NCBI GenBank assembly: GCA_035530515.1
Contig: DATKUO010000238.1
Coordinates: forward strand, 23,989 to 87,988
Source: Bacteroidales bacterium
Lineage (GTDB): Bacteria > Bacteroidota > Bacteroidia > Bacteroidales > VadinHA17
Length of the DNA: 64,000 bases
Direction of reading: 5' to 3'
The position numbers and the translations under genes were made by a program. The notes beneath the pieces are model-generated. The model was not told where the DNA came from. It worked only from the letters and a program-made list of their open reading frames with translations, and searched no databases. Below are positions 2,573-63,955 of the stretch, in pieces; within the stretch, counting starts at the first letter, position 1; every line of letters begins with the position of its first letter.

Positions 2573-2666
2573 CTTAATCTCTGGTTGGTTAAGCTTTACA
2601 AACCTACTGATTTTTTCAAATAGAAACCTCTGTTATATCTATGGAACCTTTTAAAAATAAATATTT

Positions 2667-3083
2667 TTAAAATTTATTCTTTTTGTTTTCGCAAAGTTCA
2701 ATAAGAACGCCGGAGGTTGATTTTGGATGTAAAAATGCAATATCAAGCCCCTCTGCTCCCTTCCGGGGAACGCCATCAATTAGTTTTACACCCATCTTCT
2801 CTGCATGAATTAACTGATCTTCAATTTTTTCAACAGCAAATGCAATATGATGTATCCCTTCACCTTTCTTTTCTATAAACTTTCCAATAGGCCCCTCAGG
2901 GTCAGTTGACTCGAGCAGCTCAATCTTTGTTTGCCCGACCATAAAGAAGGCAGTCCGTACTTTCTGCTCAGCCACTTCCTCGATACTATAGCATTCCATA
3001 CCAAAAACCTTTTCATAGAAATTGATTGCAGTCTCAAGATTACTGACAGCTATACCAATATGTTCAATATGTGATGGTTTCAT
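2667..3083 (-). CDS. mce: methylmalonyl-CoA epimerase (glyoxalase/VOC fold)
   Basis: Motifs HIEHIGIAVSNLETAINFYEKVFG...KIELLE...GPIGKFIEKKGEGIHHIAF...GVLIEL are typical of this family. The start was moved to the internal ATG at 3083 (MKPSHIEH); the ORF-track start at 3110 would add 9 non-conserved residues. Confidence 0.75.
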   Translation of the reverse strand: MKPSHIEHIGIAVSNLETAINFYEKVFGMECYSIEEVAEQKVRTAFFMVGQTKIELLESTDPEGPIGKFIEKKGEGIHHIAFAVEKIEDQLIHAEKMGVKLIDGVPRKGAEGLDIAFLHPKSTSGVLIELCENKKNKF

Positions 3084-3196
3084 AATTCTATAAATAATTT
3101 TTAAAAACAAAATTAGTTTATTGCCGGAATAGGGAACAGATAATTATCATGTTTTCAGGTTTTTTCCTGAAAAAGGATTACTAATAGAAGTACTGG

Positions 3197-4756
3197 TTAG
3201 AATGGGAATTCGATAGGTGCTTCTACCTCAGACTCGACGTTAACAGGTTTTTTTGCAGCTATATGGATAGCATTACCATCTACAAAAATTGCTTTATATG
3301 GAGTTGTAGGACAAGCATACTCACAATGGCCGCAACCAATACAGATATCGTCGTCAACTTCGGGTATTACCAGATTTCCTTCATAAGGAATCATATGTAC
3401 AGCTTTTGTCGGACAACTTTCTGAACATGCCCCACAGGCAGTCTTTTCTGTTTTTACAATGCAATTATCCTTAATAAATATAGCTTTCCCTATCTGAGTT
3501 AACTTTTTGGCTTCAAGAGCCAGTGGTTGTAAAGCATATGTTGGACATATCTCAGTACAGATAGTGCAGTTATATGTGCAGAAACTCTTATGATAATTCA
3601 TTACAGGTTGCATCATTCCTGCAAGTCCATATTGAGTAAATGCAGGTTGTAATACACCATTTGGACAGGCGCTGATGCACAATGAACATGCTGTACAATC
3701 TTTATTGAAATTTTCAATTCCTATACCACCAGGAGGACAAACCGGGTAAGTCTTGTTTTCTTTTACCGTTGAATCCTGCTTAGGCTTTGGTGCTGTTTTT
3801 TCCTGGCCATTTGCAACATGCGACAAACCAAAAAGAAGTAATACAGATTCGGCAATAATCTTGCGCTTGCTTTCATCAGTCTTATGTACCTTCTTTTTAA
3901 ATTTCACAATGCCGTATGAGAGAGCTTTATCCTGACAAGCGTTAATACAATTAAAGCATTCAACACACCGGGTAACATCAATATTATGATTCAGAAAGTC
4001 AATGCAGGAAGATTTACACCCAATAGCACATCTTCCGCACCTTGTGCAGGCAGTTTCATCAAATTTTATTCTGAATACCGAAATTTTAGAAAGAAGACCG
4101 AGTAATGTTCCCACCGGACAAATCGTATTACAATATAGGCGTCCTTTTGTAAATGAAAGTACTCCCACCAGAATAAAGAAAGCTGCAGGAATGGAATAAA
4201 CAACTAATGAGAAGCCTTTAACAGGTACATTACTAAGTGTATAGATATCAAATTTACCAAGAATGCCAGCAATAAAGTTATTTAAAAGAAGAACAGCAGG
4301 CCTGGCAAAATATGTCACAAACCTACCGAAAATACTATAAGGGTCCAGCAGTGTAATCATATATGTACCCCATATCAAGGTGACGATAAGGGTTATGGCC
4401 AGTAAAGAATACCTTAATACTGTAAAGGGCTTTTTATAACCATATCTCCTGAATTTCTTCTTAAAACGCCCGCCAATTCTGCTAAAGAGGTCTTGTCCGA
4501 TACCCAAAGGACATAAGAATGAGCAGTATGTCCGGCCTGTAAGTAAAGTGAGCACCAGAACAATAAGAAACCCACCTACCGCCAGTGTTTCAAGATTAAT
4601 GTACTTTAAAACAGAAGGGACAAATTGAATATATAATAATATGTTAATATACTCCGTCGGAATTAAAGATCTGAAGTCAATAAAGATCAGAAAAAAACAG
4701 ATAAAAACGATAGATGAAAAAAGGATACGTATTCTTCTAAGAACAGGTGAACTCAT
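3197..4756 (-). CDS. membrane-anchored polyferredoxin (multiple 4Fe-4S clusters, NapH/MauN-like N-terminal membrane domain)
   Basis: The N-terminal half is hydrophobic, followed by at least six CxxCxxCxxxC(P) motifs (CTRCGRCAIGC, CVECFNCINAC, CTACSLCISACP, CTICTEICP, CGACSESCP, CIGCGHCEYACP). Confidence 0.7.
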   Translation of the reverse strand: MSSPVLRRIRILFSSIVFICFFLIFIDFRSLIPTEYINILLYIQFVPSVLKYINLETLAVGGFLIVLVLTLLTGRTYCSFLCPLGIGQDLFSRIGGRFKKKFRRYGYKKPFTVLRYSLLAITLIVTLIWGTYMITLLDPYSIFGRFVTYFARPAVLLLNNFIAGILGKFDIYTLSNVPVKGFSLVVYSIPAAFFILVGVLSFTKGRLYCNTICPVGTLLGLLSKISVFRIKFDETACTRCGRCAIGCKSSCIDFLNHNIDVTRCVECFNCINACQDKALSYGIVKFKKKVHKTDESKRKIIAESVLLLFGLSHVANGQEKTAPKPKQDSTVKENKTYPVCPPGGIGIENFNKDCTACSLCISACPNGVLQPAFTQYGLAGMMQPVMNYHKSFCTYNCTICTEICPTYALQPLALEAKKLTQIGKAIFIKDNCIVKTEKTACGACSESCPTKAVHMIPYEGNLVIPEVDDDICIGCGHCEYACPTTPYKAIFVDGNAIHIAAKKPVNVESEVEAPIEFPF

Positions 4757-4762
4757 CAGAAA

Positions 4763-5683
4763 TTACATTTTAATTCTTTTAATATTCATCGAATCCAGGT
4801 TCATGTTCCCCAGACCCATTTTATTAGCAATTGGAATATATTCGATCTTATCGATTGCCACACCGAGCATTTTTGCTGAAGCAGCATCTCCGGCAACCCA
4901 GTCAGTAGTAAGTATCTGTGACTTCATTGTTACAACATCTTCCTTAGAGACTCCCCGTGGGCCATTTTTAACCATAACATTGTAACAATCGATAACATTA
5001 AGAGCAGGTTTCTTCTCATACAAAGCATAATCTGCAATACACTGGTTCAGATCATTTGAATGCCAGTAACCTCTGTCCCAAACAAGACCCATATTATTTT
5101 TCATGCAACTGGTCATTTTTGTTGAACTATGATTTTTAAGAATCGGAACATTGATAAAAACATCCGTCTCAAGTAATAGCTCATGAACCTTAGTACTTTG
5201 AAGCTTAATGCCTCCCGGAATTTCAATATTTTGATAATAACTTTCGGAATTGCCGGGTACAACTTTTGCACCTGCTGATTTTGCAGCTTTTTCAATTCCG
5301 GAATTTTTATAACAATTTACCCAGTTATCACATGTGTGGTCAAAAACATAAACCTCTTTGGCTCCTGCTCTAAAACAATGCTCAATAATCCTTTTTACCA
5401 GTAAAGGGTTTGTATTTGCTGCAAGTTCAGGAATTACATCCCATCCAATATTCGGTTTAATCAGTACTTTCTGTCCTTTTTGAACAAATGTACCCATCCC
5501 TCCAAGTTCCTGTATTCCAAGGTCAAACATTGCATCAGGATTACCACCCATTACTGCAACCATATCGTATTTTGAAGATAAAGGAGCTGATGCCCAGAGT
5601 TTTGTATATCCACCAAGACTTAAGGCTGCTCCTGCAGCCATACCTGCTCCAACTGATGTTTTAAAAAAATCCCTTCTTTTCAT
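4763..5683 (-). CDS. Tat-signal DUF362 domain protein
   Basis: From the ATG at 5683 the protein begins MKRRDFFKTSVGAGMAAGAALSLGG, a twin-arginine signal. The body has DUF362-like motifs (VLIKPNIGW, VPILKNHSSTKMTSCMKNNMG). The longer ORF-track start at 5806 adds 41 low-quality residues. The stop is 6 nt upstream of the polyferredoxin start. Confidence 0.7.
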   Translation of the reverse strand: MKRRDFFKTSVGAGMAAGAALSLGGYTKLWASAPLSSKYDMVAVMGGNPDAMFDLGIQELGGMGTFVQKGQKVLIKPNIGWDVIPELAANTNPLLVKRIIEHCFRAGAKEVYVFDHTCDNWVNCYKNSGIEKAAKSAGAKVVPGNSESYYQNIEIPGGIKLQSTKVHELLLETDVFINVPILKNHSSTKMTSCMKNNMGLVWDRGYWHSNDLNQCIADYALYEKKPALNVIDCYNVMVKNGPRGVSKEDVVTMKSQILTTDWVAGDAASAKMLGVAIDKIEYIPIANKMGLGNMNLDSMNIKRIKM

Positions 5684-5878
5684 AGCCTGTATAAATCCGT
5701 TAAATAAATCTAATAATGGATAATCGCCGAAAAATACGATTTTTTTTTTATTATTCCGTAAAGATTGTAAATAGTATCTTAGCATCATTAAAAATTGGTA
5801 TTGCAAATTTTACAAGAATTAACTTAACATTCTTCCTAATTAGTTGTTAATATTTAACACCTCTTATCTTATTAAAGT

Positions 5879-7057
5879 ATGAAAATTATCTCTTATGATT
5901 GTTTCTCGGGTATAAGTGGAGATATGAATCTGGGTGCCATGATCGATCTTGGCGTTGACAAGTCATATCTTATTAATGAACTTAATAAACTCAACCTGCA
6001 AGGATGGGAACTTATTGTCGAGAAAGACCAAAGGCATGGTATTACCGGTACTAAAGTAACTGTTAAGCAAACAAGACATGAGCATGCCCACCGACATCTT
6101 TCAGATATTGAAAAAATTATTAATGACTCAAGCCTTGACAATAAAACAAAGGAGTTGAGCAGAAAAATATTTATGAAAGTTGCTGTTGCAGAGGCCTCCG
6201 TACATGGTATACCTATTGAGATAGTACATTTTCATGAAGTCGGAGCAATTGATTCAATTATCGATATTGTGGGAGCAGCAATATGCTTTAATGCTCTGAA
6301 GGTTGATGGTGTACATGTTTCACCTGTGGAGCTGGGAAGTGGTTTTGTGAAATGTGACCATGGTAACCTTCCTGTTCCGGCTCCGGCAACTGCTGAGATC
6401 ATTAAAGGCCTTCCTGTTACAAAAGGAGGTGTTGATTTTGAAGCCACCACTCCAACAGGTGCAGCAATATTAGCGGCGTTGGGAACCGATTTCAGCTCTG
6501 AACTACAGCTGAAAATAGAAAAAACAGCTTATGGAGTTGGTCAAAAAGATAATCACAATATTCCTAACCTTTTAAGAGTATTTCTTGGTGAGTCAATAAC
6601 GAGCTTAGAATCAGGACATGAAGCATTGCACCTCGAATGTAACATTGATGATATGAATCCGGAGTTTTTTGAGTTCATATCCGACAGACTCTTCAAGGCA
6701 GGCGCTTCTGATGTATTCCTTTCAAATATAATAATGAAAAAAGGCAGGCCAGGTATAGTTCTTAATGTGATCTGCGAAATAGAATCAGCTGATACAGTAA
6801 AAAATATTATTTTTAGCGAATCTACCTCACTGGGTATCAGAACATTCCCCTTCAGAAAAGATACTCTGGTCAGAAAGTTTGAGACAATCCAGACAACCTA
6901 TGGTGATGTAACCGTTAAACGCTCATTCTATAAAGAAAAAGAGGTTTCCAGCAAACCTGAATATGACGACTGCAGACGAATAGCGGAAGAAAAAGGAATC
7001 CCAATAAAAGAGGTATTTAATAATATAATGGCAGTATTGGTAAAAGAGAAAAGGTAA
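5879..7057 (+). CDS. larC: nickel-pincer cofactor biosynthesis nickel insertase LarC (DUF111)
   Basis: Motifs MKIISYDCFSGISGDMNLGAMIDLG, HFHEVGAIDSIIDIVG and PVPAPAT are LarC/DUF111 hallmarks. It is a single unsplit ORF. Confidence 0.85.
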   Translation: MKIISYDCFSGISGDMNLGAMIDLGVDKSYLINELNKLNLQGWELIVEKDQRHGITGTKVTVKQTRHEHAHRHLSDIEKIINDSSLDNKTKELSRKIFMKVAVAEASVHGIPIEIVHFHEVGAIDSIIDIVGAAICFNALKVDGVHVSPVELGSGFVKCDHGNLPVPAPATAEIIKGLPVTKGGVDFEATTPTGAAILAALGTDFSSELQLKIEKTAYGVGQKDNHNIPNLLRVFLGESITSLESGHEALHLECNIDDMNPEFFEFISDRLFKAGASDVFLSNIIMKKGRPGIVLNVICEIESADTVKNIIFSESTSLGIRTFPFRKDTLVRKFETIQTTYGDVTVKRSFYKEKEVSSKPEYDDCRRIAEEKGIPIKEVFNNIMAVLVKEKR

Positions 7058-7218
7058 AAGTTGAACCTGGCGGCTCCCCTCCCTGGAGTACTTGTCCCGC
7101 AGATCGGGAGCCTGCCCCGGGCGAAGCATCGGGGGTCAGGTGGGTTAAAAGACTAACGCACTATACACGACTTACGACGCCAGAAAGAAGAAAAGAATTA
7201 AAAATTTAATAAACATAT

Positions 7219-8022
7219 ATGACAGATATTAAATCAGCAAAACTAAATTCAATCCTGAAAGGACTGGATACATTTGCTGTTGCGTTCTCAGGAGGAGTAG
7301 ACAGTTCATTCTTGTTGTACAGAGCTCATAAAATAAGGAAATCCGGAATAATCGCAATTACCATAAGAACACCATATATCCCTGTTCGTGAAATAGATGA
7401 AGCCATCGAATTTACTAAGAGATACGGTATCAAACATAAAATTCTGGATCTTGGTTTTCCGGAAACGATAAGAACTAACCCTATTGAAAGATGTTATCTA
7501 TGTAAGAAAACACTTTTCACTGAGCTATTAGCCTTTACCACAAAAAACAGTTATAAATATGTTATTGATGGTACAAATGCTGACGATGAGGGAGATTTCA
7601 GACCAGGAATGAAAGCTTTGAAGGAAATGGGTATTAGAAGCCCTCTCCTGGAGGCTGGTCTGACTAAAAAAGATATCAGACAAATCTCGAGAGATGAAGA
7701 CCTGGATATCTGGGATAAACCTGCTATGGCATGTTTGCTTACCAGAATACCATACGATACAGAGATTAAGGAGGGAATGCTCAGAATGATAGAGCAGGCG
7801 GAAAACATGTTGTTCGAAAAAGGATATCCCGGAACCAGAGTCAGGATACACGGGGATGTAGCAAGAATCGAGTGCCTGCCTGGTTATATTGAAAAGATTA
7901 TTCAAAATCCTGGCAGAAAACATATTATAAGCGGTTTAAAAAAAATAGGATTCAGATATGTATCTTTGGACCTTGAAGGTTACCGGACAGGTAGCTCAAA
8001 CCCTGAAATGGAAGAACTATGA
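7219..8022 (+). CDS. larE: ATP-dependent sacrificial sulfur transferase LarE (PP-loop ATPase)
   Basis: PP-loop AFSGGVDSSFL is present, and there is a conserved Cys context PAMACLLTRIPY. It lies between larC and larB. Confidence 0.85.
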   Translation: MTDIKSAKLNSILKGLDTFAVAFSGGVDSSFLLYRAHKIRKSGIIAITIRTPYIPVREIDEAIEFTKRYGIKHKILDLGFPETIRTNPIERCYLCKKTLFTELLAFTTKNSYKYVIDGTNADDEGDFRPGMKALKEMGIRSPLLEAGLTKKDIRQISRDEDLDIWDKPAMACLLTRIPYDTEIKEGMLRMIEQAENMLFEKGYPGTRVRIHGDVARIECLPGYIEKIIQNPGRKHIISGLKKIGFRYVSLDLEGYRTGSSNPEMEEL

Positions 8023-50696: not shown

Positions 50697-50786
50697 GGAG
50701 AAATGGCAGAGTGGTCGAATGCGGCGGTCTTGAAAACCGTTGTACGTTCACACGTACCGGGGGTTCGAATCCCTCTTTCTCCGCCA
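50697..50786 (+). tRNA. tRNA-Ser (anticodon UGA), CCA encoded
   Basis: Manually folded. Acceptor stem ggagaaa/tttctcc, anticodon stem gcggt/accgt with loop cuUGAaa. There is a long variable arm (tgtacgttcacacgtacc), T-arm ggggg-ttcgaat-ccctc, and discriminator g followed by cca. Confidence 0.9.
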
Positions 50787-52605: not shown

Positions 52606-53545
52606 AAATGTAAATAAGCTGTTCGGCTCGTCTATTTTTTGTATAATATAATCTGTACTCATGATAATCGAAATTTATGGATATTTATATATTACCACCA
52701 GCCACAAAATTAGTCTACACCCAGCAGTCACTCCAGGTTTTACTACCATAATCCTTTCCGCAACTATTTATAACCGTGCAAGTTTGGAATAGCTTATTTC
52801 ATTGATTTTCAATTAAAGAGCGAGTTCATTACCGTGCTAAAAGGTTGACTATTTATTAATATGTAGAAATCAATTGGACCATTCTGTTCACTTCAATTTT
52901 AGTCAGTTGTTCTCAAGTAAGAAGAGAAAAGGACAGAGGTAGCGACAACTTTCTTGCTTGGATTAAACACTTAGATTATTCACTTGTGATAGTTATAGAT
53001 AGGACACAATGGATTCAAAAAGACAGGCTTTAACAGGTGAAGAGACTTTTATGGTCCTCCACTCCTATTTTAGACTAAAATTAGCAATGCTTCTTTTCAT
53101 TGGATTCTTTCTGAAATGCACATTCCACAGTCGGATTTCTTCGAAATAATCCTTATATCTAAGTAGTTTTTGCTTTAAGGAGTATTTCAGTGATAATATA
53201 TAGATTGAAACATTGTTTTACGCTGTGAACAGAAATCTTATAGCCTATTTCACTATATTATATAAGACATAATATATAGGGATTTATGTACATAATTGAA
53301 GTGATAAGTATTTGAATACATAGTGATATTCATGAGTTTAATGGAGAGTGATATCACATTTGAATTTATGTTTAATTCTAAGATTCATGCTAGAGAAATA
53401 ATATTTAGCAATGGCTGGAATATTAAGATGGATAGAGGTTTAGATTATTTTCAATCCTTAGCAGGTAATTATTTCCAGATTGGAGTCGATGATCTTAAGT
53501 TGAGACCCTGTTTAGAAACTAATTTTGATTTTTATAAAAAATAGT

Positions 53546-56500
53546 CTAATGGTTTTTCTTTTCAAAAACAATATTATAGAGTATTCCTTCTCGTTGACTT
53601 GTATTGAACAATCTAAGATCTTCAGTAGAATCGACATCTTCCTGACTTATTATACCTTCGCTACTATCGAGCTTCCAACCATTCTTAATCCCTCCGTTCG
53701 GTCTGATAATAAGTTCAAAATTGTCCGACATTATTACTAATTCTCTCCAATGTGGAAGGAATCCTCCCTCATGAATAATAGGAACAGTACTTAAAATTGA
53801 TGTACTGGAGTCTTTTAAGAACAATTTACGTGAACCAGAGTCAATCCAATCCTTATCAATGTCATCAACATAAGCGTACCGATAGTTATTAAAGCTGGAC
53901 ATGTTGAAATTAAGTGTTTGAATATCCATATTGAGATTTTCAGAGATAGATTTTATCAGATTCAAGAGAATAAGGCAACCCAGAGCATCTTTAAGGTAAA
54001 TATCCTGGTATGTAATTTTTACTTTGCTGTTTTTAATCTTTGGAATTAATTTATCCCACATAGCTGAATCCGTTCTATAAAGAGTGTCCCAAAACTTAAC
54101 AAGTGTTGTATTCCTTTCTTTTATCTTGAATTCAAAAAGAATCTTATTCTTAGTCATTAAACTTCCCAGGTCAATATCCCAAGGTGTAAATTGCAATTGA
54201 GAAGAAAAGCGGCTTTTATAAATAGGGCTTCCACTTAAGCCCCAGTTTTCTGAGAATTCCGTGCATTCATTTTCTGAAAAATATAGAATCGATTCTTTAT
54301 TTGCATATTCTACAAGCATCAAAGAATTCAATCCCTTAGGAATAATAGAACTTATTATCTTAAACTGATATTGGCCTTTTGCCTCCATTGCTGATGCCAA
54401 TTCCCTTGCTGAAAGATCCGAGACGTCTGGTGAATTCATAGCAAAATTCACTTGTTTCCCCTGAAGTTTTAACCGATTTACAATTTCAGATAGTTTCCAG
54501 TTTTCCTGTTTCCACTCATTAATTTTATTTGAAATAAAAAAGGTTAATCTTTGTAATTCAGGATTTGCCACAACCTGAGTAATTTCGGTAAGCAGATTTG
54601 AAGTAACTCTATATGCACCGGGGAAGGATGAAGAGATTGACTCAGGCACTTCTACACGGCCTTCTTTTTCAAGTTGAAGCCACTCTATAGCTTTATTTCT
54701 ATCCAAATTATTTAAAAACCATTGTGAATCTCTGTCAATCAGGCATTTTGTACATGCTTTTTCACAAGTACAATCTAATGCTTGATATGATGAGTCTAAA
54801 ATTTCTGAAGCATAGTCAACAAAAAGGGATGAATACCCTGCACCACCTTTAGCTGTATCGTAAATAAAGACTGATGAATAGGTTGGATATTTCTTCACCC
54901 CAAAACCAATTTCCTGATTATTAATCCCAAGATACTCAGATAGCTTTCGAGATAAAATAACCCCTAAACTCCAAATGGTCTCAGGGTCGTTTATTAAATT
55001 ATTATTATTATTTCTGAACCTTAGTTCGATAAAATCAGTTTGCAACCTCCCTCCTAATAGTACATTTCTTTTAATGGCAACACCCAGGTTTTCATTGCCT
55101 GAACAAGTTCTGTTGCCTTCGCTTGCTCCTCCATTCAGTCTTTGATGGTTTTCAAGTGGATTGGGTGATCCTTCCGCACTTCCCCTTTCGAGTGAAGCTC
55201 TGCCACAATGTATACAAATTGCGTATCCAAATCCTTTTCCTTTATTATAATACAGAATTTCAGATTCATCACCACCATTACGAATCTCAATTATTGGATG
55301 CGTTCCTTCGGTATCTGAATCCCAAGGAAGCATATTTAATAAGATTGGCTCCACGAAACTTTGTGGGCCATTATTTGCTTTAATGTTTCTGGTAGGTTCA
55401 CTGAAATAGTCAACTGAAAACCCGGCGGGTTCAATCACTTCAGTAAAAGTATCACCAATAGATTGAATGCCATTCATTCCCTTATGATGACAATTAGGAC
55501 ATTCAGAATGAATACCAAAACCTAACCTAGTGAATCCACAATTTCTGCAGCTTTGTAAGATAGCCCTTCTAGAATCATTCCATTGAGATTTCATTACAAT
55601 GCCTGCGGAATCATAGCACTTTTCATTTAGTACCACCTGATTCCCAGGGGCGTATTCTGCTAATGCTCGTGTAATATTAAGTGAAGGGTTACTTTTATAT
55701 AAATTATTCTCATTCCCTTCATCAATATGATTATCAAAAACTTTAATATTAAAATCCACTATTCCGGTTGGGATTCCTGCACTTGGGATAAAGTCATTTT
55801 CTGCAAAAAAACCAAGAAGATTTTGTCCTAATAATTGTTTCCTCTGATACTTGATCGCTTTTATTTCAGGAGAGGTTTCAGAAAATCCATTCATCGCCAA
55901 TAGTCTTTCTTCAGACTCATCCAACATCATTTTCCTTGAGTTTAACCTGTTAAAAATATCCTCCAACGATGTAAGGCAAGATTTTATTGATTGCTCCAAA
56001 GTTGTCGATTCTTTAATAGTATTCTTTACAATTTTTTTATACCTATTTCGAATCTCGGAATTATCAACTGCCAAAAATTCCATCAGATATTGATGAAATA
56101 ATTCATATCTAAAAATGTTATTCTCATCCTGGTCGAAAAAGAAATTTTCAAGATTTGACTTGACATTTGCGCCCTCTATTACAGAAATATATGTTCCTAA
56201 TAAAAAAGAATTAATATGCCTTTGAATCAAAATACTACTTTCCAATTTTACAATTGGCATTGCAGTGACATGAGTCATCGCCCATTTTGGATCATTTATT
56301 ACATTAGTACCAATTGGATTTGGAGAACAAAATGTTACAGCCATTGCCTTAGATTCTGCACGCCTTCCAGCACGTCCAGCTCTTTGCAGGTAATTTGCAG
56401 GTTTAGGAGGAACATTATTCATTACTACTTCCGAAATACCTCCAATATCGACCCCCATTTCCATAGTAGTAGAGCATGATAAGATATTTATTTTGCCAAA

Positions 56501-59500
56501 ATTAAATTGCTCTTCAATTTCCTTCAAGCGACTCTTATTCTGCTGTGCGGAGTGCTCAGCGGCTAAGAAAATAGGATAGTTCAATAATATCCTTTCATTT
56601 AGGTTTGACCATAATCCAATTTCTTTTTGCCTAACTAGATTATCATCTTTCCATTTAAGGATTTCTTCATCTGAAGTGGGAATAAGATTCCTTTCCACAT
56701 CAAATTTTTGCTTATAAGCATAAGGGAAATACGGATAAGATATTTCCTCTTTAACTTTAAACCTTTCAAAATTATCTTTATTAATATTACCTTTCAAGGA
56801 CGGACTAAAACCTCTGAAGACAGTATCCATTGGGACATAAGTAACAGGGCATAGCCAGGCCTTTTCAAGCAGTTCTAGTTTCACTTTTCCGTTTTCGAAC
56901 AAGTTCAACTTATAACCTTTGTATTCTGCATTTTGATCGTTAGTTAAAGATAAAATATGAGAGGTTAAATATCTCCAGGCGCTATTTAGGATAGAATTTA
57001 TAATATCGACATTTGTATTATCAATCATTGAAATATCGGTAATATTCATTGCCGCGCAAAGAAGTAAAATTAATCGGCTTTGTCTTTCTTCTTGGACATT
57101 AAATGAAGGCCAATGCTTTACCCTATTGCCAGATCTTTCATTCGTTAAATAGCAATCTGATGCATATACATGACTGGAAAAATAGTCCTGAGTAATAAAT
57201 GGTCTAAGTTCGCTTTGGATTATGATGTGTGTATTTTCCCGCACGAAGAAATCAAGACAAATTTTTAGAAAGTCTCTCCAATCGTTAGAGCTCCATCCTA
57301 ATTTTTCAAATGACGAAGGTCTTTCACATTTTTGTAATTCCGGATAGACTATTTTAATGAATCCCATTGTTTCTGGTGAATTACCTTTTCGAGGTCTCCT
57401 CCCAAATTGATCAACAAGAAGTGCTTTTAAATAATTTTGTTTTCCTAAACCATGACTGGAAATATGGCGATATAAACTAGACAAATTCGCATTGTTATCA
57501 AGGTATTCACATAATTCACTGAGACTTATGTTTGGATTAAGGATAATTTGAGTACCAGATTTTATATTTTCAAGTTCATGCAAGCGCTTTAAGATCACTT
57601 CTATCCCGCTACTCCTTAATGGTAAAAGCTGATCATACTCTTGTTGTTCCAAAGTATCTAATTCGCGATGAAGAGTAGCTCCCTCCCTTTTTTTCCCTGC
57701 CAGGTAATGAAAGACAGCGGTTCTCATCCAATTGCGCTCAACTTCAGTATTTTGGGCCAAAGCAGATTTTGCTGTTCCTTGCCTATTATCAGTGAAGGTT
57801 ATATATTTTCTTCCATCCCATAAACTTCCTGTATTTTTGTCTGGCATAGAATCTGCCTGCTCAAGCAAAGTAGATGATAATACACGACTTAAAAACACAG
57901 TGCTGGTTCGCAAATACTTTATTTTATCAGTTCGGTTGCCACAGTGCGGGCATAAAATATTCCCACTTGTTGAATGCTGACATTCTGTAAATTCTCCATC
58001 GTGGATTATTGTTACATCATCTATATTTATACCACAAGATATAAGATTAGCTGAGTTTGAAGGAGCTGATGTTACACCTTTCGCAAGTATAATTTTAGAC
58101 CAGCTCAGGTTTTCCGTCTCATTTTGTTCTTCATTTTCTAAATCATCCTCTATAGCCAAATCAAAAAGATCTTCTTCGGTTTTTGATGGAAGTCTAAACC
58201 TTGCAGGATAAATTTCTTGCTCTCTCTCAGCAACCAATAAATGATTCCCACATAAATTACAGGATGTTAATTCTAATAGAGGGGCACCGCATTCACACAC
58301 GGTTTTCATATACGTTGTCATTGATCCAATCGCCGGGCGGTCTTCAATATGCCGTTCACAAAGAGGATTTGTACAAACGAATATTCCACCTATACTACGA
58401 ATAAAAAAATGGGCTCTAGTTGGTAATAATGCATCACTTTTGCCAGAATTTATTAAATCAGTAATTTTAATTCCTAATGAATCAATTATTTCAAGACTTT
58501 CTTCAATTGTAGCGTCAGGCTTATATCTTCTGCCAATTTCTCTGGCTGATAAAGCTGAACCCTGATTCATATCGAGTCGTAGTTTGTCAGTAATAGGGTT
58601 CGTTCTCGAAGTGTCCTTAATTTTTGGAAGCACTTGTTTTCCATTAATTACCGCAATTTCATCTAATGATTTGCCCGTAAGTTGAGCAATAAACTTTTTC
58701 AACTGGCTCTCATTATCCGAACCAATAGTGGCTGAAGTTGATGCAAATCGAACTTGGTTAACTGTCACACCGAACGCATCAAGAATCCTTCGAATCTGCA
58801 TAGAAAGTTCAGCAGCTGCAGATCCTGAGTAGGTATGTGTTTCATCCAATAATATCCAACGTAATTTACCCTGAGATTGCTTCAAAATTTCCTGATCCTT
58901 TTTTCTTACCAACATATACTCTAACATAGTTGGATTTGTAAAAAGTATTTGAGGTGTGGTTTCTCTAATAGCCTTTCTTGTAATTAATTCGGGATACGCT
59001 TCTTTTTGTTTTTGCTTTGCAATATTTTCTTCTTCAGTATTTCCATTATAAATAGCAAATGTAACTTGAGGGGATACAGCCTCACACCATGCTTTCATTC
59101 TTTTCTGCTGGCTGTTCATTAATGCATTAAGTGGGTATAGAAATATCGCTTGTACACCAGTAGTATGTCCTTCAATCTTTTGTCTAAGTAAATCTTGAAT
59201 TACAGGTATCATGAAACACTCTGTTTTTCCTGAGCCTGTGCCACTGGTAACAGCAATTGATTTTTTATTTATTAGTAATTCTTTCCAACTTTCAACTTGA
59301 TGCAGATAGGGAGCTCTCTCCTTTGGAAAGCGAAAGTCTGGATCCTTTATCTTATCTAATGACTTTATAAAATTCTCATCAAAAATATCACTAAGCTGCT
59401 CAAAAGACTTTGAAGATGCCATCCAAGGAAATGTAGCCTGAAAAACCGGTTCCGCTAATAATGGTTCCTCTTCAAGTAATTTTCTAAAATATTTCTGGTT

Positions 59501-59584
59501 GCTTTCCTGGCCCGAAGCCCACATTGAAAGAAGCGTTTCGGATAGTCGTCGCTGCGAATTTTTATAAAATTCCAAGTAATTCAT
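53546..59584 (-). CDS. giant SF2 DExH helicase with internal Zn-ribbons and a DUF1998-type (MrfA-like) Cys cluster; DruE-like candidate defence helicase
   Basis: 2012 aa. Motif I SGTGSGKT is at aa114-121 (nt 59222-59245) and motif II DETH at aa247-250 (nt 58835-58846). Motif III SAT is at aa284-286 and a motif-IV-like YITFTDNRQGTA at aa594-605. Motif V TTMEMGVDIGG is at aa1039-1049 and motif VI QRAGRAGRR at aa1067-1075 (nt 56360-56386). Cys pairs CTNPLC/CEC/CNLC/CPHC lie at aa404-548 and CRNC...CPNC at aa1346-1365. CIHC is at aa1457-1460, and the DUF1998-type cluster CTCEKACTKC at aa1605-1614 (nt 54743-54772). The C-terminal ~370 aa carry no recognisable motif. Confidence 0.75.
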   Translation of the reverse strand: MNYLEFYKNSQRRLSETLLSMWASGQESNQKYFRKLLEEEPLLAEPVFQATFPWMASSKSFEQLSDIFDENFIKSLDKIKDPDFRFPKERAPYLHQVESWKELLINKKSIAVTSGTGSGKTECFMIPVIQDLLRQKIEGHTTGVQAIFLYPLNALMNSQQKRMKAWCEAVSPQVTFAIYNGNTEEENIAKQKQKEAYPELITRKAIRETTPQILFTNPTMLEYMLVRKKDQEILKQSQGKLRWILLDETHTYSGSAAAELSMQIRRILDAFGVTVNQVRFASTSATIGSDNESQLKKFIAQLTGKSLDEIAVINGKQVLPKIKDTSRTNPITDKLRLDMNQGSALSAREIGRRYKPDATIEESLEIIDSLGIKITDLINSGKSDALLPTRAHFFIRSIGGIFVCTNPLCERHIEDRPAIGSMTTYMKTVCECGAPLLELTSCNLCGNHLLVAEREQEIYPARFRLPSKTEEDLFDLAIEDDLENEEQNETENLSWSKIILAKGVTSAPSNSANLISCGINIDDVTIIHDGEFTECQHSTSGNILCPHCGNRTDKIKYLRTSTVFLSRVLSSTLLEQADSMPDKNTGSLWDGRKYITFTDNRQGTAKSALAQNTEVERNWMRTAVFHYLAGKKREGATLHRELDTLEQQEYDQLLPLRSSGIEVILKRLHELENIKSGTQIILNPNISLSELCEYLDNNANLSSLYRHISSHGLGKQNYLKALLVDQFGRRPRKGNSPETMGFIKIVYPELQKCERPSSFEKLGWSSNDWRDFLKICLDFFVRENTHIIIQSELRPFITQDYFSSHVYASDCYLTNERSGNRVKHWPSFNVQEERQSRLILLLCAAMNITDISMIDNTNVDIINSILNSAWRYLTSHILSLTNDQNAEYKGYKLNLFENGKVKLELLEKAWLCPVTYVPMDTVFRGFSPSLKGNINKDNFERFKVKEEISYPYFPYAYKQKFDVERNLIPTSDEEILKWKDDNLVRQKEIGLWSNLNERILLNYPIFLAAEHSAQQNKSRLKEIEEQFNFGKINILSCSTTMEMGVDIGGISEVVMNNVPPKPANYLQRAGRAGRRAESKAMAVTFCSPNPIGTNVINDPKWAMTHVTAMPIVKLESSILIQRHINSFLLGTYISVIEGANVKSNLENFFFDQDENNIFRYELFHQYLMEFLAVDNSEIRNRYKKIVKNTIKESTTLEQSIKSCLTSLEDIFNRLNSRKMMLDESEERLLAMNGFSETSPEIKAIKYQRKQLLGQNLLGFFAENDFIPSAGIPTGIVDFNIKVFDNHIDEGNENNLYKSNPSLNITRALAEYAPGNQVVLNEKCYDSAGIVMKSQWNDSRRAILQSCRNCGFTRLGFGIHSECPNCHHKGMNGIQSIGDTFTEVIEPAGFSVDYFSEPTRNIKANNGPQSFVEPILLNMLPWDSDTEGTHPIIEIRNGGDESEILYYNKGKGFGYAICIHCGRASLERGSAEGSPNPLENHQRLNGGASEGNRTCSGNENLGVAIKRNVLLGGRLQTDFIELRFRNNNNNLINDPETIWSLGVILSRKLSEYLGINNQEIGFGVKKYPTYSSVFIYDTAKGGAGYSSLFVDYASEILDSSYQALDCTCEKACTKCLIDRDSQWFLNNLDRNKAIEWLQLEKEGRVEVPESISSSFPGAYRVTSNLLTEITQVVANPELQRLTFFISNKINEWKQENWKLSEIVNRLKLQGKQVNFAMNSPDVSDLSARELASAMEAKGQYQFKIISSIIPKGLNSLMLVEYANKESILYFSENECTEFSENWGLSGSPIYKSRFSSQLQFTPWDIDLGSLMTKNKILFEFKIKERNTTLVKFWDTLYRTDSAMWDKLIPKIKNSKVKITYQDIYLKDALGCLILLNLIKSISENLNMDIQTLNFNMSSFNNYRYAYVDDIDKDWIDSGSRKLFLKDSSTSILSTVPIIHEGGFLPHWRELVIMSDNFELIIRPNGGIKNGWKLDSSEGIISQEDVDSTEDLRLFNTSQREGILYNIVFEKKNH

Positions 59585-59605
59585 AAGTGGTGTTTATTAT
59601 AATAG

Positions 59606-62600
59606 TTATTTCTGAAGAATTCTTTTAACCATGCATAATAGTATTTCAGCATATTCTGAAGGCAAGAATTGCCGGTAGAAATTTATGGTGCGGCGCATTT
59701 TCACATTTTCATCATTCCAAATTGTATCGTCTTTCCCTGTCATGGCTAAAGCTGATTTTACTGGAGAGATCAGTAATCCCCTCACATAAACTGGTAATTC
59801 AGCATTCATTGCTTGGGGGAATAAATCTTTCCATTCATTGGGAATAAAAACTAAATATTCTGGTAAATTACTATTCCCACCCAGTTTCTCTCTTATATTT
59901 TGAATCTTTATCTGAGATGGAGCAGGTACAATTTGATTAATAAGGACTTCATTATTTTCCAATAAGTTCAGTAATTCACCTGTCTCTGCATTAAGCGTAT
60001 AATTCATAAATGCTTTTTTCCATTCAAAGCTGCTAATTAGAAATCCATTTTTCATTGAATCTGGCATTCTTTCTAACAACCAATCTATTGCCTCAATCCA
60101 ATCTCCTTCCTTTATCCAGTGCCATGCAACTGCAAGTTCATTTTCGAACCTGGTTATGCCTTGCAATAAATTATCCTTATTGACATTTTGGCTTTGCCAT
60201 AAAAGATATGTCATTTTCACCATTAGTATAGGAGATAAAGAAATTGCGCGAAAGCAATTCAATGTTTTAAAAGGAAGTGAATAATTGATAACAATATTAT
60301 AATACTCAATTACTTTTCTCCATTCTTCCGAAATCTGGAAATTGTCTTCAAATGCAGGACTTTTTTCCAATGACTCATTAATTTCAATAATATTCTTTTC
60401 TTGTGGACTCAAACCACTATTATCATAAAATTCAATGTCAATTTTTTCAGATGAAAAATCAAAATAACGAGGCACCACTTGTTCATCTGCAGTTTTATCA
60501 GAGAATATAATAAACTTCTTTAAAGAAGTTCCTTCTTTTAAATTATAACTTTCACCGGAGTTTTTTCCCATCTCCTCTACAATTATTTCATCGCTTGAGC
60601 ATCCAACTGCAATTCCATATAATTTCTCTTTGTAATCTATAATATTATTGTCTTCATAATTATCGACAATAAAAATTGAATTCTTTTCATCATCTTTTTT
60701 CGTAAACAAATTGAATTCTTTAATGAAAACTACTTTATTGCCAATTTTAACCATTACTTGAGATTCTTTGTCAAATGGATCAGAATCATAAAGTAGAAAC
60801 ATTTCACGAATGTTATCTTCAAATCGACTTAACGAATGTATTCCTTGTACAAGCTGCCCCGAAATTCTTACCTTAAGGTTCTTGTAGTGTGAGACTCTCG
60901 TATCTGCATTTTGCCCCATCACAACAAATCTATAACCATACAGTGAAGATCTGCAAAGGACATGATTATTTTCGATTTCAATTCCCTGAGAATTCAAAAG
61001 AACAATTCCGCTAAAAGGTGATGCAACTGTAATTTCTAAAAATGGAGTATTTGCCTGGTTTAATTTAGGAAAAAGTCGAAATTTTGTAATCTCCGGATAT
61101 TGTATTAGATCACTCTTGCGAGATACTCTCCAAATATTCTTATCAAGACTTTCAATTACTAATCCTTGTTGATCTGAAACAGGAAAAATATCACCGCCTG
61201 ACCATTCCCACTTTATAACTCCAGATTTTTGTGTCAGATTTTGGAAATTGCAATCTAAATCTCCCGTGTAATAAAATTTTTCTTTGAAGAATTTTTTATC
61301 TGGAAACTCTATCTTGAATTCCAGCAAACCAATTGGAAGGTTTTTACCATCATATTTTTTCCATTCGCGATCTCTAAATTCCCGGAAATGAACATTACTC
61401 GCTGGTACTCTTATATGCGATTCATTGTACAAACGAATATCCGGTTTGGAAATAAGAATTTTAAAATTTGCATTTTGAACCCAATCTATTGACCAACCTG
61501 CAAACTCACATGTGTAGGAAGTTAAAGTATCATCAAATATAATTTCCTCCTCAGTTAGAGTATTTGTGAGCGTGATTGAGTCACAAAATGCAATCCAGTT
61601 AAGTGTTATTTCTGAAAGATAAACTTCTGAAGTTGATCCCACTGTACTCCAATCAAGAGGAAGAATTACCGCATTATTATTTGAATTAGAAGTTCCTGAT
61701 TTAAAAAACCAAAAGCCTTCGTTTTCGACTAATAATTGTGGGGTTTCAAAGTCAGGAACAAAACTATTAGGAGCAGTTATATCAACGATTTGGTTATTAT
61801 CTTTTTTTAATTGAAGGGAAATTACTGGTTCTCCCTTCCATTTAAAATTCATAAATTTTGATTCTCTCAAAATAAAATCACCATTAATAGATCGGATATA
61901 AGTTGCGACATATTGATTTTGTACATATAATGAAAATGAGTTGCAATCTTCTAATTGATGTTCTTCCTTATAGGAATAAGGAATTTTTTTAGCAAGCTCA
62001 ATATTATATGACAATTGCAGATTTTCTTCTAATTTGAAAATTTTCCACCTCACAGTAAAAGGTGCAGAGTGTGAAATTTCTGAGTTAGAACTTTCTTTCA
62101 GATCTTTTGTTAATTCTTTCCATTTACCTTCTTGGGCATCATATGGTAGTAAATCATCATTTTTCTCATAGATAGCTCGTGCGATTAGTAAACTTAGCTC
62201 ATATATACCTTCATTTTTAAAAGATAAAGGCAAATAATTTGTACAAGGTAAATTCTCAATGAAACTACTATCATTCCAATTAATATTTACATTTTCTGTA
62301 TGCTGAATAAGGCCTTTAAGGAATGTTTTATATACGATTATATTCTCACTATTACCCTGAATATGATTCATAGGCAAGCCACCTTGTATTAATAGGGATC
62401 GAAACCATAATCGGTTTCGACGGACAATTACAGGTATTCTTAACCGTCTACCTCCTATTTTTGCTAATTGATATAATTCCTCTGCATAATAATTACTCAA
62501 ACCTAACGATGATGAAATTGCTTCCTTACTGGTTCTTCCCCCATTATATTCTCTTCTCCACCACTCAGAGTAATACAAGGCAGCTTCATTAGCAAGTTTT

Positions 62601-62719
62601 TGATTATTTGGATAATTTATAGAAATAAATGCATCATGCAATTCCTTTTTTAATACATCATATTGTTCTTGAGTAATTTTCATTTTCCACAAAGGGATTT
62701 GCCATACTATATTTTCCAT
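59606..62719 (-). CDS. large (1037 aa) protein of unknown function, translationally linked partner of the helicase; DruH-like by position and size only
   Basis: Uninterrupted ORF ending 21 nt before the helicase ATG on the same strand. No P-loop, nuclease, methylase or Zn motif was recognised by eye. The Trp-rich N- and C-terminal regions look alpha-helical and the middle looks beta-rich. Confidence 0.6.
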   Translation of the reverse strand: MENIVWQIPLWKMKITQEQYDVLKKELHDAFISINYPNNQKLANEAALYYSEWWRREYNGGRTSKEAISSSLGLSNYYAEELYQLAKIGGRRLRIPVIVRRNRLWFRSLLIQGGLPMNHIQGNSENIIVYKTFLKGLIQHTENVNINWNDSSFIENLPCTNYLPLSFKNEGIYELSLLIARAIYEKNDDLLPYDAQEGKWKELTKDLKESSNSEISHSAPFTVRWKIFKLEENLQLSYNIELAKKIPYSYKEEHQLEDCNSFSLYVQNQYVATYIRSINGDFILRESKFMNFKWKGEPVISLQLKKDNNQIVDITAPNSFVPDFETPQLLVENEGFWFFKSGTSNSNNNAVILPLDWSTVGSTSEVYLSEITLNWIAFCDSITLTNTLTEEEIIFDDTLTSYTCEFAGWSIDWVQNANFKILISKPDIRLYNESHIRVPASNVHFREFRDREWKKYDGKNLPIGLLEFKIEFPDKKFFKEKFYYTGDLDCNFQNLTQKSGVIKWEWSGGDIFPVSDQQGLVIESLDKNIWRVSRKSDLIQYPEITKFRLFPKLNQANTPFLEITVASPFSGIVLLNSQGIEIENNHVLCRSSLYGYRFVVMGQNADTRVSHYKNLKVRISGQLVQGIHSLSRFEDNIREMFLLYDSDPFDKESQVMVKIGNKVVFIKEFNLFTKKDDEKNSIFIVDNYEDNNIIDYKEKLYGIAVGCSSDEIIVEEMGKNSGESYNLKEGTSLKKFIIFSDKTADEQVVPRYFDFSSEKIDIEFYDNSGLSPQEKNIIEINESLEKSPAFEDNFQISEEWRKVIEYYNIVINYSLPFKTLNCFRAISLSPILMVKMTYLLWQSQNVNKDNLLQGITRFENELAVAWHWIKEGDWIEAIDWLLERMPDSMKNGFLISSFEWKKAFMNYTLNAETGELLNLLENNEVLINQIVPAPSQIKIQNIREKLGGNSNLPEYLVFIPNEWKDLFPQAMNAELPVYVRGLLISPVKSALAMTGKDDTIWNDENVKMRRTINFYRQFLPSEYAEILLCMVKRILQK

Positions 62720-62902
62720 ACATATAAGATTTAAGCTGATAAGACTAAGTTGAAGTAATGTTTCATAAAATACGGCTTATTAAATCTTTAACATTCTCAA
62801 TATCTATATGTTATTTGTAATAATTAAATTCCCCTGGATATAAAATCTTGAATTCGGCTAACCTAATTCATACTCATTTACTACAAACATTATCCACCTT
62901 TC

Positions 62903-63955
62903 TCAATCGGATTTCATATAATACAATTCAATATACCATTTTATCCAGTTATTGAGCATTTTATCACCTGATCTACCTGCAGAATTTATTATATCAGATG
63001 ATTTAAATGATGAGAATTTTGGATTATTATCAATCAGATCCTTATATCTACTTATTGAACCTTCTAAAGCATCATTACCTGGATGATGAACCACAGAGAA
63101 ACTAACATTTTTATATAACCCTTCATTTTCAAGTGCAAAACCCAACAATTGATTACGCCATAACTGATTCATCCCTCCTTGAAACGGGCATGGTCCCTCT
63201 TTTTTATAATTTACATAAAAAGATTTATTAGCCTCAGTGATTTCCCAATAATTGAATTTTCTAACATCATGATAATAACATAGTTTTTTGTCCATCAGAA
63301 TATCAGAAAATGATTTCTCGCAAAGATGTATTTTATCATCTCGATTGTCACTCTTATATCCACCACATTGTGTAAATTCTTTTTCAGTGAGTTTATGTTC
63401 TATCAACCACAAGCAAAGCTCATTATCATTGTTATAATATGCTATTGCAATGTCTGAATCGGTACCCGACCTTGCTGAGTGGTCGCCTAACAATCCTTTT
63501 TCATAGGAGGAATTACCATCCCAAAACTCTATTCGGAATCCTTTGTAAAATTGATCTGTAGCCAGACTTTGAAAATCAGATTTAAGTTCACGAATAATTT
63601 CATTGACTTTAGGATTTAACAGGATCGGTAAAAACAGGTTTACATTAGCTGCCTGGGAGCTAACCATATGATTGAAATGCTGATGAAGTTTGAAAGGAAA
63701 TTTTTCTTTATGCGATAATAAGTCTGATAAAATGGGAGGATAGATCAATGGGTACTTTGTGTGAACTGACTCAGGCAAAATTGCATCATATTTATATTCT
63801 CGAGTAATGCCTTTTACTTTCTCTGTATAAATACCCTCCTCCCTTGTAATATTCTTCCATTTCCAGTTAATCAAATGCACATACAATTTTTTCTGAAACT
63901 CGCTGAGCGATTCAGGTAGTTTATATTTAATCCCATCTAGTATCTCTTCTTTCAT
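62903..63955 (-). CDS. PD-(D/E)xK restriction-endonuclease-like protein
   Basis: 350 aa. The candidate catalytic core is ...GTDSDIAIAYY(x13)LWLIEHKL... (D166/D168 ... E186-x-K188; nt 63392-63460), preceded by RIEFWD (E143). The HFNHMVSSQAANVNLFLPIL block is typical of restriction-enzyme-like families. It sits 183 nt upstream of the 1037-aa gene on the same strand. Confidence 0.55.
   Translation of the reverse strand: MKEEILDGIKYKLPESLSEFQKKLYVHLINWKWKNITREEGIYTEKVKGITREYKYDAILPESVHTKYPLIYPPILSDLLSHKEKFPFKLHQHFNHMVSSQAANVNLFLPILLNPKVNEIIRELKSDFQSLATDQFYKGFRIEFWDGNSSYEKGLLGDHSARSGTDSDIAIAYYNNDNELCLWLIEHKLTEKEFTQCGGYKSDNRDDKIHLCEKSFSDILMDKKLCYYHDVRKFNYWEITEANKSFYVNYKKEGPCPFQGGMNQLWRNQLLGFALENEGLYKNVSFSVVHHPGNDALEGSISRYKDLIDNNPKFSSFKSSDIINSAGRSGDKMLNNWIKWYIELYYMKSD

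What the first reader, a model, noticed from the sequence alone, without database searches (positions are those of the whole stretch)
59606..62719. 1037-aa motif-less protein translationally coupled to the helicase
A protein this large with no P-loop, no metal-binding Cys/His clusters, no nuclease or methylase signatures and no signal peptide is unusual. Its tight linkage to the helicase (21-nt gap) suggests the two form a complex. The termini are Trp/Tyr-rich and helical (e.g. WHWIKEGDWIEAIDWLLERMP). The centre looks like repeated beta modules. If it is not a DruH homologue, it defines a new partner family for DUF1998 helicases.
Basis: inference. Interest (0 to 1): 0.6.

Follow-up and report, generated by a model that had tools for sequence, protein, structure and literature searches.

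The report
DruH of a Druantia III system
The large "motif-less" protein is a divergent Bacteroidales copy of DruH, the known partner of the DruE helicase-nuclease in the two-gene type III Druantia anti-phage system, so it is an ordinary new member of a known family and not a new one.

Summary
The ORF is real: 59606-62719 (-), 1037 aa, ending 21 nt before a 2012-aa helicase gene at 53546-59584 (-). It has no P-loop, no Cys/His cluster and no hit in the local Pfam. It is not an orphan. It matches PADLOC's DruH3 model end to end (E 2e-127), and the helicase matches DruE3 end to end (2179 bits). A profile of its relatives finds the solved E. coli DruH structure (PDB 9tud, E 1e-36). Profile-profile alignment with the E. 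coli DruH family gives 100% probability over 977 columns. The AlphaFold2 model (pLDDT 89) shows the published DruH plan: a helical N-domain, about six Ig-like domains and a helical C-domain. A DruE gene followed DruH in all 11 loci (nine independent lineages) where downstream DNA was available. The system is missing from 24 same-genus species and is rare in the phylum, as expected for a mobile defence island. Five 2026 papers describe Druantia III structure and mechanism. What is distinctive is modest. The clade is only about 15-22% identical to the studied DruH proteins. It scores below NCBIfam's YjiT cut-off, and it shows no recognisable equivalents of the E. coli ATP/ssDNA pocket residues.

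The parts
59606..62719 (-). druH, 1037 aa (stop codon at 59606-59608)
   Evidence: ORF. PADLOC DruH3 PDLC00045, E 2.2e-127, residues 4-1037 against model positions 25-1065 of 1065. The family profile hits PDB 9tud 'DruH' at E 1.2e-36. hhalign against the E. coli DruH family gives probability 100%, E 2.8e-55.
62087..62719 (-). [quoted passage not shown] It carries the conserved E52, W53, W54, R55, R56, Y58, G60 and Q112-G113-G114-L-P116.
   Evidence: AF2 secondary structure. NF038336 hit on residues 9-188. Conservation. These residues map to E. coli E75, R78/R79 and G136/G137, whose substitutions abolish defence (paper read).
60458..62059 (-). DruH central all-beta region (aa 221-754), about six Ig-like domains
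   Evidence: AF2 model. Foldseek hits only to arrays of Ig-like domains: S-layer proteins, alpha-2-macroglobulin, cadherins and phage Ig/tail proteins. Published DruH structures have six Ig-like domains.
59609..60406 (-). DruH C-terminal alpha-helical domain (aa 772-1037), with conserved W800, P816, H867-W868, W874, P953, R1009-R1010 and Y1023
   Evidence: AF2 model and conservation. In P. aeruginosa this domain contacts the DruE Stalk domain. For this protein the contact is inferred.
59585..59605 (-). 21-nt druH-druE spacer
   Evidence: Spacers are similarly short in relatives: 20 nt in L001, 10 nt in L002, 21 nt in G239, and a 1-nt overlap in E. coli.
53546..59584 (-). druE, 2012 aa. An SF2 helicase (Walker A GTGSGKT at 115, DETH at 247, QRAGRAGR at 1067) with an MZB/DUF1998 domain and a C-terminal region aligned to that of the E. 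coli III-A DruE.
   Evidence: Pfam DEAD, Helicase_C and MZB. PADLOC DruE3 PDLC00036, 2178.6 bits, residues 1-2009 against model positions 3-2022 of 2023. PDB 9tu7, E 2.5e-216. Motifs and alignment to ECs_5260 over residues 31-1914.
62720..62902 (-). 183-nt AT-rich spacer upstream of druH, probably the promoter region (not shown)
   Evidence: Sequence. The sigma-70-type scan found no more sites than shuffled sequence. Bacteroidota promoters are not covered by that tool.

Best explanation
The ORF encodes DruH, and with the adjacent DruE it forms a complete two-gene type III (III-A-like) Druantia anti-phage system. The system sits in a defence island of an uncultured Bacteroidales bacterium. The proposed mechanism is taken from studied homologues and is inferred here. 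DruH is a cytoplasmic protein of about 120 kDa with a helical N-domain, six Ig-like domains and a helical C-domain. It engages exposed single-stranded DNA or 3' ends on forked phage replication and recombination intermediates. By one report it trims 3' overhangs as a 3'-5' exonuclease. On such DNA its C-terminal domain binds the Stalk domain of DruE and opens the autoinhibited DruE dimer. DruE then translocates 3'-to-5', unwinds the duplex and degrades the DNA with its C-terminal PLD-like nuclease. This clears the phage without killing the cell. Shown here: homology, fold, conserved N-terminal residues, gene adjacency and patchy distribution. Inferred: DNA binding or processing, complex formation, and defence itself.
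For: PADLOC matches are full length for both proteins: DruH3 at E 2.2e-127 and DruE3 at 2178.6 bits. A profile of 76 relatives finds PDB 9tud 'DruH' at E 1.2e-36. hhalign of that profile against the E. coli DruH family gives 100% probability, E 2.8e-55 and 977 aligned columns. The AF2 model (pLDDT 89.1) reproduces the published architecture. The N-terminal residues required for defence in E. coli DruH (E75, R78/R79, G136/G137) are conserved as E52, R55/R56 and G113/G114. DruE lies immediately downstream of DruH in L001, L002, L003-L005, L009, L010, L011, E. coli Sakai, G239 and G104. The family has 330 clusters at 50% identity, most of them about 1000-1075 aa long, so this is not a fusion or a misassembly. 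Distribution is patchy: 4 of 401 genomes in the phylum and 0 of 24 species in the same genus. The mechanism comes from bioRxiv 10.64898/2026.05.13.724313, 10.64898/2026.05.12.722862, 10.64898/2026.05.13.724758 and 10.64898/2026.05.12.724681.
Against: Pairwise identity to the studied E. coli DruH is very low: BLASTP aligns only the N-terminal 171 residues, at 22% identity and E 2e-4. The NCBIfam YjiT_fam score of 115 bits is below the 150-bit cut-off. The residues forming the E. coli ATP/ssDNA pocket (Y670, N672, H689, Y733, R1031, H1062, R1064, K1067) have no conserved counterparts in this clade. That part of the alignment is of low confidence, and the residues are conserved in only about half of the E. 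coli-type family. E. coli R29 aligns with I8 here. The literature disagrees on DruH biochemistry. It has been reported as a 3'-5' exonuclease, as a nuclease that depends on dimerisation, and as having no nuclease activity but ATP-inhibited ssDNA binding. A stable DruE-DruH complex was seen only with forked DNA in P. aeruginosa and was not seen in E. coli. Nothing was tested experimentally for this protein.
Confidence: 0.9

Rival explanations
1. Same identity (DruH), different role. DruH would mainly sense phage proteins. Its Ig-like array would recognise late structural proteins such as baseplate components and then switch DruH into an active, possibly dimeric, state. DNA would not be the primary ligand.
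For: This model is proposed in bioRxiv 10.64898/2026.05.12.724681. [quoted passage not shown] In this analysis the Ig region is the least conserved part of the family, and Foldseek finds phage Ig/tail proteins.
Against: The Foldseek hits are generic Ig arrays with TM scores of 0.14 or less, and no baseplate-J match appeared. Two other groups show direct ssDNA binding or processing by DruH. The authors themselves call the sensor case indirect.
Confidence: 0.25
2. A new family of partners for DUF1998/MZB helicases, unrelated to DruH.
For: No hit in the local Pfam-A. No direct phmmer hit in the PDB. The NCBIfam score is below its cut-off.
Against: The PADLOC DruH3 match is full length. The family profile hits 9tud DruH. 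hhalign gives 100% probability over 977 columns. Relatives carry PF27201 YjiT_N.
Confidence: 0.01
3. A decaying, non-functional remnant of a Druantia system, like the truncated yjiT of E. coli K-12.
For: Decay does occur in relatives. L008 holds only a ~300-aa N-terminal remnant. G239 druH has an in-frame TAA. The Prevotella druE is split by an IS1595-family transposase.
Against: Both frames in the window are intact and full length against their models. The helicase motifs are intact. All family-invariant DruH residues are present.
Confidence: 0.04

Closest known systems
DruH of type III-A Druantia (E. coli EDL933/Sakai ECs_5259, PDB 9tud; P. aeruginosa PaDruH), also known as the YjiT / STY4851/ECs_5259 family
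   Same: Similar length (1037 against 1119 aa). Same three-part architecture of helical N-domain, six Ig-like domains and helical C-domain. The same conserved N-terminal residues (E-x-x-R-R and G-G-L-P). Same position directly upstream of druE in the same orientation. Located in a defence island.
   Different: Only about 14-22% identical. Scores below the NCBIfam cut-off. Relatives of this clade are annotated with PF27201 (YjiT_N) only, whereas the E. coli clade also has PF27205. The ATP/ssDNA pocket residues and the R29 equivalent are not recognisably conserved. The host is Bacteroidales, while most described systems are from Gammaproteobacteria.
DruE-DruH of Mycolicibacterium smegmatis (Cell Insight 2026, PMC13316683)
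   Same: A two-gene DruH-DruE system in which defence depends on the interaction between the two proteins.
   Different: Only the abstract was read. No sequence comparison was done here.
MrfA-MrfB (Bacillus subtilis mitomycin repair helicase and 3'-5' exonuclease)
   Same: An MZB/DUF1998 SF2 helicase paired with a DNA-end-processing partner. DruE matches PDB 6znp (MrfA/YprA) at E 3e-17. The analogy is drawn in the paper read.
   Different: MrfB is a DnaQ-like exonuclease unrelated to DruH. MrfAB is a repair system, not a defence system.

Membership tests
DruH (PADLOC DruH3, Druantia type III) | Full-length match to a DruH profile | tested here: met
   PDLC00045, E 2.2e-127, 424.5 bits, residues 4-1037 against model positions 25-1065 of 1065. 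Five further DruH3 models hit the N-terminal domain.
DruH (PADLOC DruH3, Druantia type III) | Homology to an experimentally characterised DruH | tested here: met
   Profile A1 against PDB 9tud_A 'DruH', E 1.2e-36. hhalign of A1 against the E. coli family A3 gives probability 100%, E 2.8e-55 and 977 columns. 9tud has the ECs_5259 sequence.
DruH (PADLOC DruH3, Druantia type III) | Architecture of N-terminal helical domain, six Ig-like domains and C-terminal helical domain | tested here: met
   AF2 model with pLDDT 89.1 and pTM 0.80: helices at 1-211, beta at 221-754, helices at 772-1036. Ig-array fold hits. The count of six domains was read from strand groups, not from a superposition.
DruH (PADLOC DruH3, Druantia type III) | Encoded directly upstream of a DruE helicase with an MZB/DUF1998 domain | tested here: met
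   21-nt gap. DruE has DEAD, Helicase_C and MZB domains and a full-length DruE3 match. The same adjacency holds in nine other lineages.
DruH (PADLOC DruH3, Druantia type III) | N-terminal residues required for defence in E. coli DruH (E75, R78/R79, G136/G137) | tested here: met
   They map to E52, R55/R56 and G113/G114 at hhalign confidence 7. They are conserved in 63, 35+28 (R/K), 50 and 76 of 76 relatives.
DruH (PADLOC DruH3, Druantia type III) | ATP-competitive ssDNA nucleobase pocket (E. coli Y670, N672, H689, Y733, R1031, H1062, R1064, K1067) | tested here: inconclusive
   The aligned positions are D606, R608, none, G660, E954, P976, Y978 and G981, with alignment confidence 2-6. These columns are variable in A1, and the residues are conserved in only about half of A3. 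A superposition on 9tud is needed.
DruH (PADLOC DruH3, Druantia type III) | Confers phage defence together with DruE | not testable with these tools
   Needs cloning and phage challenge.
NCBIfam NF038336 YjiT_fam (STY4851/ECs_5259 subfamily model) | Score at or above the curated cut-off of 150 bits | tested here: not met
   115.1 bits, E 2.6e-33, best stretch residues 9-188 against model positions 18-194 of 1090. This indicates homology but places the protein outside the named enterobacterial-type subfamily. I therefore file it under DruH in the broad sense, not under this subfamily model.
Pfam YjiT_N (PF27201) / second YjiT domain (PF27205) | Match to the Pfam models | tested here: inconclusive
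   The models are absent from the local Pfam copy. In precomputed annotation, relatives at 28-76% identity carry PF27201 only, while the E. coli clade carries PF27201 and PF27205.
Type III-A Druantia system | Long DruE with a C-terminal PLD-like region (III-B DruE lacks it) | tested here: inconclusive
   DruE is 2012 aa. It matches the 2023-position DruE3 model end to end and aligns with the E. coli III-A DruE through residue 1914. The PLD catalytic residues could not be mapped because no P. aeruginosa sequence was available.

The most novel reading that the evidence does not exclude
This DruH clade was found here mostly in Bacteroidota and metagenomes and is about 15-22% identical to the studied proteins. 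It may be a functional variant that lacks the ATP-gated nucleobase pocket and the R29-type arginine of the enterobacterial proteins. If so, it would bind or process DNA, or be licensed, in a different way while keeping the universally conserved N-terminal E-W-W-R-R / Q-G-G-L-P core. Comparing the two clades could help settle which DruH activity, nuclease or ATP-gated ssDNA binder, is the ancestral and essential one.
Probability: 0.2. Interest if true: 0.35.

Novelty: new member of a known kind. Interest (0 to 1): 0.15.

Why it matters
It matters little as a discovery. Druantia III was defined in 2018, and five 2026 papers give structures and mechanisms for both proteins. The practical value is annotation. 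This protein gets no hit in the local Pfam-A and falls below NCBIfam's cut-off, so standard pipelines may well leave it as a hypothetical protein. The cross-clade conservation map is a useful by-product. Only the N-terminal E/R-R/G-G-L-P core and a few Trp, Gly and Pro residues are universal, while the E. coli ATP/ssDNA pocket is not. That map points to the residues most likely to carry the family's essential function, in a field where the published biochemistry conflicts.

Tried and rejected
- **Pfam-A on DruH:** no hits, and none for E. coli DruH either, because the local copy lacks PF27201 and PF27205.
- **Direct phmmer against the PDB:** nothing. A family profile was needed.
- **Locus search in genome contigs:** the single protein found nothing. 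The 76-sequence alignment was too divergent to seed a search. A 15-sequence alignment gave 4 loci.
- **Foldseek against the PDB:** the library ends on 8 April 2026 and lacks 9tud, so only generic Ig arrays with TM of 0.14 or less came back.
- **Foldseek against BFVD:** no baseplate-J-like match.
- **Mapping the P. aeruginosa residues (R22, K28, E64, E220):** not possible, because no fetched protein had those residues at those positions. The R22 = E. coli R29 and K28 = R35 equivalence is my own inference from spacing.
- **Search for an empty site in a same-genus genome (G410):** the AI-2E transporter flank is present but synteny is rearranged, so no island boundary could be read.
- **Promoter and terminator scan:** no more sites than shuffled sequence.
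- **Is the upstream REase-ARP nuclease a third component?** Rejected, because it has no homologue in any other druHE locus.
- **N-terminally extended homologues:** scanned for informative fused domains, and none were found.
Full report
**Observation.** The window has an intact ATG-started ORF at 59606-62719 on the minus strand, 1037 aa long. Its stop codon lies 21 nt before the ATG of a 2012-aa ORF at 53546-59584. The spacer has no Shine-Dalgarno sequence and there is no stop/start overlap. Operon linkage is therefore clear, but translational coupling is not shown. A motif scan found no Walker A, no CxxC, 9 scattered Cys, 11 His and a non-hydrophobic N-terminus. The local Pfam-A gave nothing.

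**Identity.** PADLOC-DB places both proteins in type III Druantia.
- The 1037-aa protein matches DruH3 model PDLC00045 at E 2.2e-127 (424.5 bits) over residues 4-1037, against model positions 25-1065 of 1065.
- The helicase matches DruE3 model PDLC00036 at 2178.6 bits over residues 1-2009, against positions 3-2022 of 2023.
It hits the N-terminal 180 residues at E 2.6e-33 but scores 115 bits against a 150-bit cut-off.
- I fetched ECs_5259 from E. coli O157:H7 Sakai. Its numbering matches all eight residues named in bioRxiv 10.64898/2026.05.12.722862. It is the sequence of PDB 9tud 'DruH'.
- Pairwise BLASTP between the window protein and ECs_5259 aligns only the N-terminal 171 residues, at 22% identity and E 2e-4. 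Direct phmmer against the PDB finds nothing.
- An exhaustive HMMER search gave 330 clusters at 50% identity with E<=1e-3. Of these, 121 had E<=1e-30, and most are full length at about 1000-1075 aa.
- A profile of 76 of these relatives (A1) finds 9tud_A at E 1.2e-36 in two co-linear stretches.
- hhalign of A1 against an alignment of 16 E. coli-type DruH proteins (A3) gives 100% probability, E 2.8e-55 and 977 aligned columns, covering residues 4-1024 against 25-1117.

The protein is therefore homologous to characterised DruH over its whole length.

**Fold.** AlphaFold2 with A1 gave mean pLDDT 89.1 and pTM 0.80. The model has helices at 1-211, about 45 strands at 221-754 grouped into about six sandwiches, and helices at 772-1036. 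Two cryo-EM studies describe the same architecture: a globular helical N-domain, six Ig-like domains, and a helical C-domain that packs back on the N-domain. Foldseek against the PDB and BFVD returned only arrays of Ig-like domains at low TM. That PDB library predates 9tud. The authors of bioRxiv 10.64898/2026.05.13.724313 reported the same kind of result.

**Conserved residues.** Across A1 the invariant residues are W54, G113, G114, P116, W225 and G464. Nearly invariant are W11, E52, W53, Y58, G60, Q112, W800, P816, W868, P953 and Y1023.
- The E. coli residues whose substitution abolishes defence (E75, R78/R79, G136/G137) align with E52, R55/R56 and G113/G114 at good confidence. These are conserved in both clades.
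- The E. coli ssDNA/ATP pocket residues (Y670, N672, H689, Y733, R1031, H1062, R1064, K1067) align with non-equivalent, variable positions here. Alignment confidence is low in that region, and the residues are conserved in only about half of A3.
- E. coli R29, part of a D-G-R motif also present in a third of A1, is I8 in the window protein.

**Context and distribution.** A DruE gene follows DruH directly in every locus where downstream DNA was available. These are two metagenome contigs at 76% and 50% identity (L001, L002), a Prevotella lineage (L003-L005), three Bacteroidales MAGs (L009-L011), E. coli Sakai, and genomes G239 and G104.
- The exceptions are remnants: a ~300-aa N-terminal piece in a Prolixibacteraceae MAG (L008) and an N-domain-only 367-aa ORF in G184.
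- Published surveys agree. One counted 6,885 RefSeq genomes with complete Druantia III and found congruent DruE and DruH trees. [quoted passage not shown]
- The host is an uncultured Bacteroidales bacterium. Its PPDK is 93% identical to that of lake and fen MAGs.
- DruH was found in 4 of 401 genomes sampled across the phylum and in none of 24 other species of the genus.
- The contig continues beyond the window (L013). It carries a REase-ARP-type PD-(D/E)XK nuclease, a 128-aa ORF, an extra AddA-like/AddB-like pair, HTH genes, an HNH endonuclease and a type I restriction R subunit. This is a defence island.
- The REase-ARP gene has no homologue in other druHE loci, so it is not part of the system.

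**DruE.** It has an intact Walker A (GTGSGKT at 115), DETH at 247, motif VI at 1067 and several Cys pairs. It carries Pfam DEAD, Helicase_C and MZB domains. It matches the solved DruE (9tu7) at E 2.5e-216. It aligns with the E. coli III-A DruE from residue 31 to 1914. It therefore carries the long C-terminal region that distinguishes III-A from the compact III-B form.

**Mechanism (inferred from homologues).** DruH and DruE are both required for defence, and the defence is direct, not abortive.
- DruE is a 3'-5' MrfA-like helicase, autoinhibited as a dimer, with a C-terminal PLD-like nuclease.
- For DruH the reports differ. One describes a Mg-dependent 3'-5' ssDNA exonuclease that trims 3' overhangs and, on forked DNA, forms a 1:1 complex with DruE through its C-terminal domain. 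Another describes a dimerisation-enhanced nuclease and a likely sensor of late phage proteins. A third describes an ssDNA binder without nuclease activity whose nucleobase pocket is blocked by ATP.
- The conservation found here favours the N-terminal domain as the universal functional core. It also suggests the ATP pocket may be clade-specific.

I commit to the DNA-intermediate engagement and licensing model for the window system. My confidence is about 0.9 in the identity and about 0.5 in the mechanistic details.

**Verdict.** The 'new partner family' alternative is refuted. This is a divergent new member of a known and now well-studied family.

Noticed in passing
window 62903-63955 (-): A 350-aa PD-(D/E)XK nuclease lies 183 nt upstream of druH in the same orientation (Pfam REase-ARP, E 2.4e-16; PDDEXK_13, E 6e-12). 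It has no PADLOC hit and no homologue in any other druHE locus examined, so it is probably a separate defence gene.
   Followed up: partly
L013 (G000:C238:86500-102876) 1858-7832 (-), just beyond the window end: An extra AddA-like protein (1089 aa: UvrD helicase plus C-terminal PDDEXK_1) and an AddB-like protein (902 aa: PDDEXK_1) sit in the island. Same-genus genomes lack an orthologue (best hit E 9e-12), while this genome and its relatives share another ~1067-aa AddA-like gene (C25). An accessory RecB-family helicase-nuclease pair next to Druantia III is notable, because published work ties Druantia III to RecBCD.
   Followed up: partly
L013 8803-16018 (-): The island also carries HTH_17, an HNH endonuclease (PADLOC HNH, E 1.5e-25), HTH_3, and a type I restriction R subunit (PADLOC REase_I, E 4.9e-133).
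   Followed up: partly
L003 13101-20322 and L004 13101-19753: In a Prevotella lineage druE is split into ~1300-aa and 754-aa ORFs by an inserted IS1595-family transposase gene. That Druantia III copy is probably inactivated.
   Followed up: no
L008 535-1569; G184:C1:1677839-1678435; G239:C15:122921-125932: Signs of decay or domain-only forms: a ~300-aa N-terminal DruH remnant without druE in a Prolixibacteraceae MAG, an N-domain-only 367-aa ORF with no adjacent druE, and a full-length druH with one in-frame TAA next to an intact druE.
   Followed up: no
proteins P0027 (1280 aa), P0034 (1560 aa), P0039 (1661 aa), P0145 (1345 aa): These DruH homologues have N-terminal extensions of 200-630 residues with no Pfam match. 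They may be fusions that could hint at function.
   Followed up: partly
window 50697-50786 (+) and 52606-53545: The only tRNA in the window, tRNA-Ser(TGA), lies about 2.8 kb from the druE end. A 940-bp stretch with no ORF longer than 73 aa separates the AI-2E transporter gene from druE. This may be the island junction, but synteny in a genus relative (G410) is rearranged, so no boundary could be defined.
   Followed up: partly
L013 1457-1843 (-) and L001 5161-5532: The 128-aa ORF between the REase-ARP gene and the AddA-like gene has a 46%-identical homologue in the island of the closest druHE locus (L001). It has no Pfam or PADLOC match.
   Followed up: no
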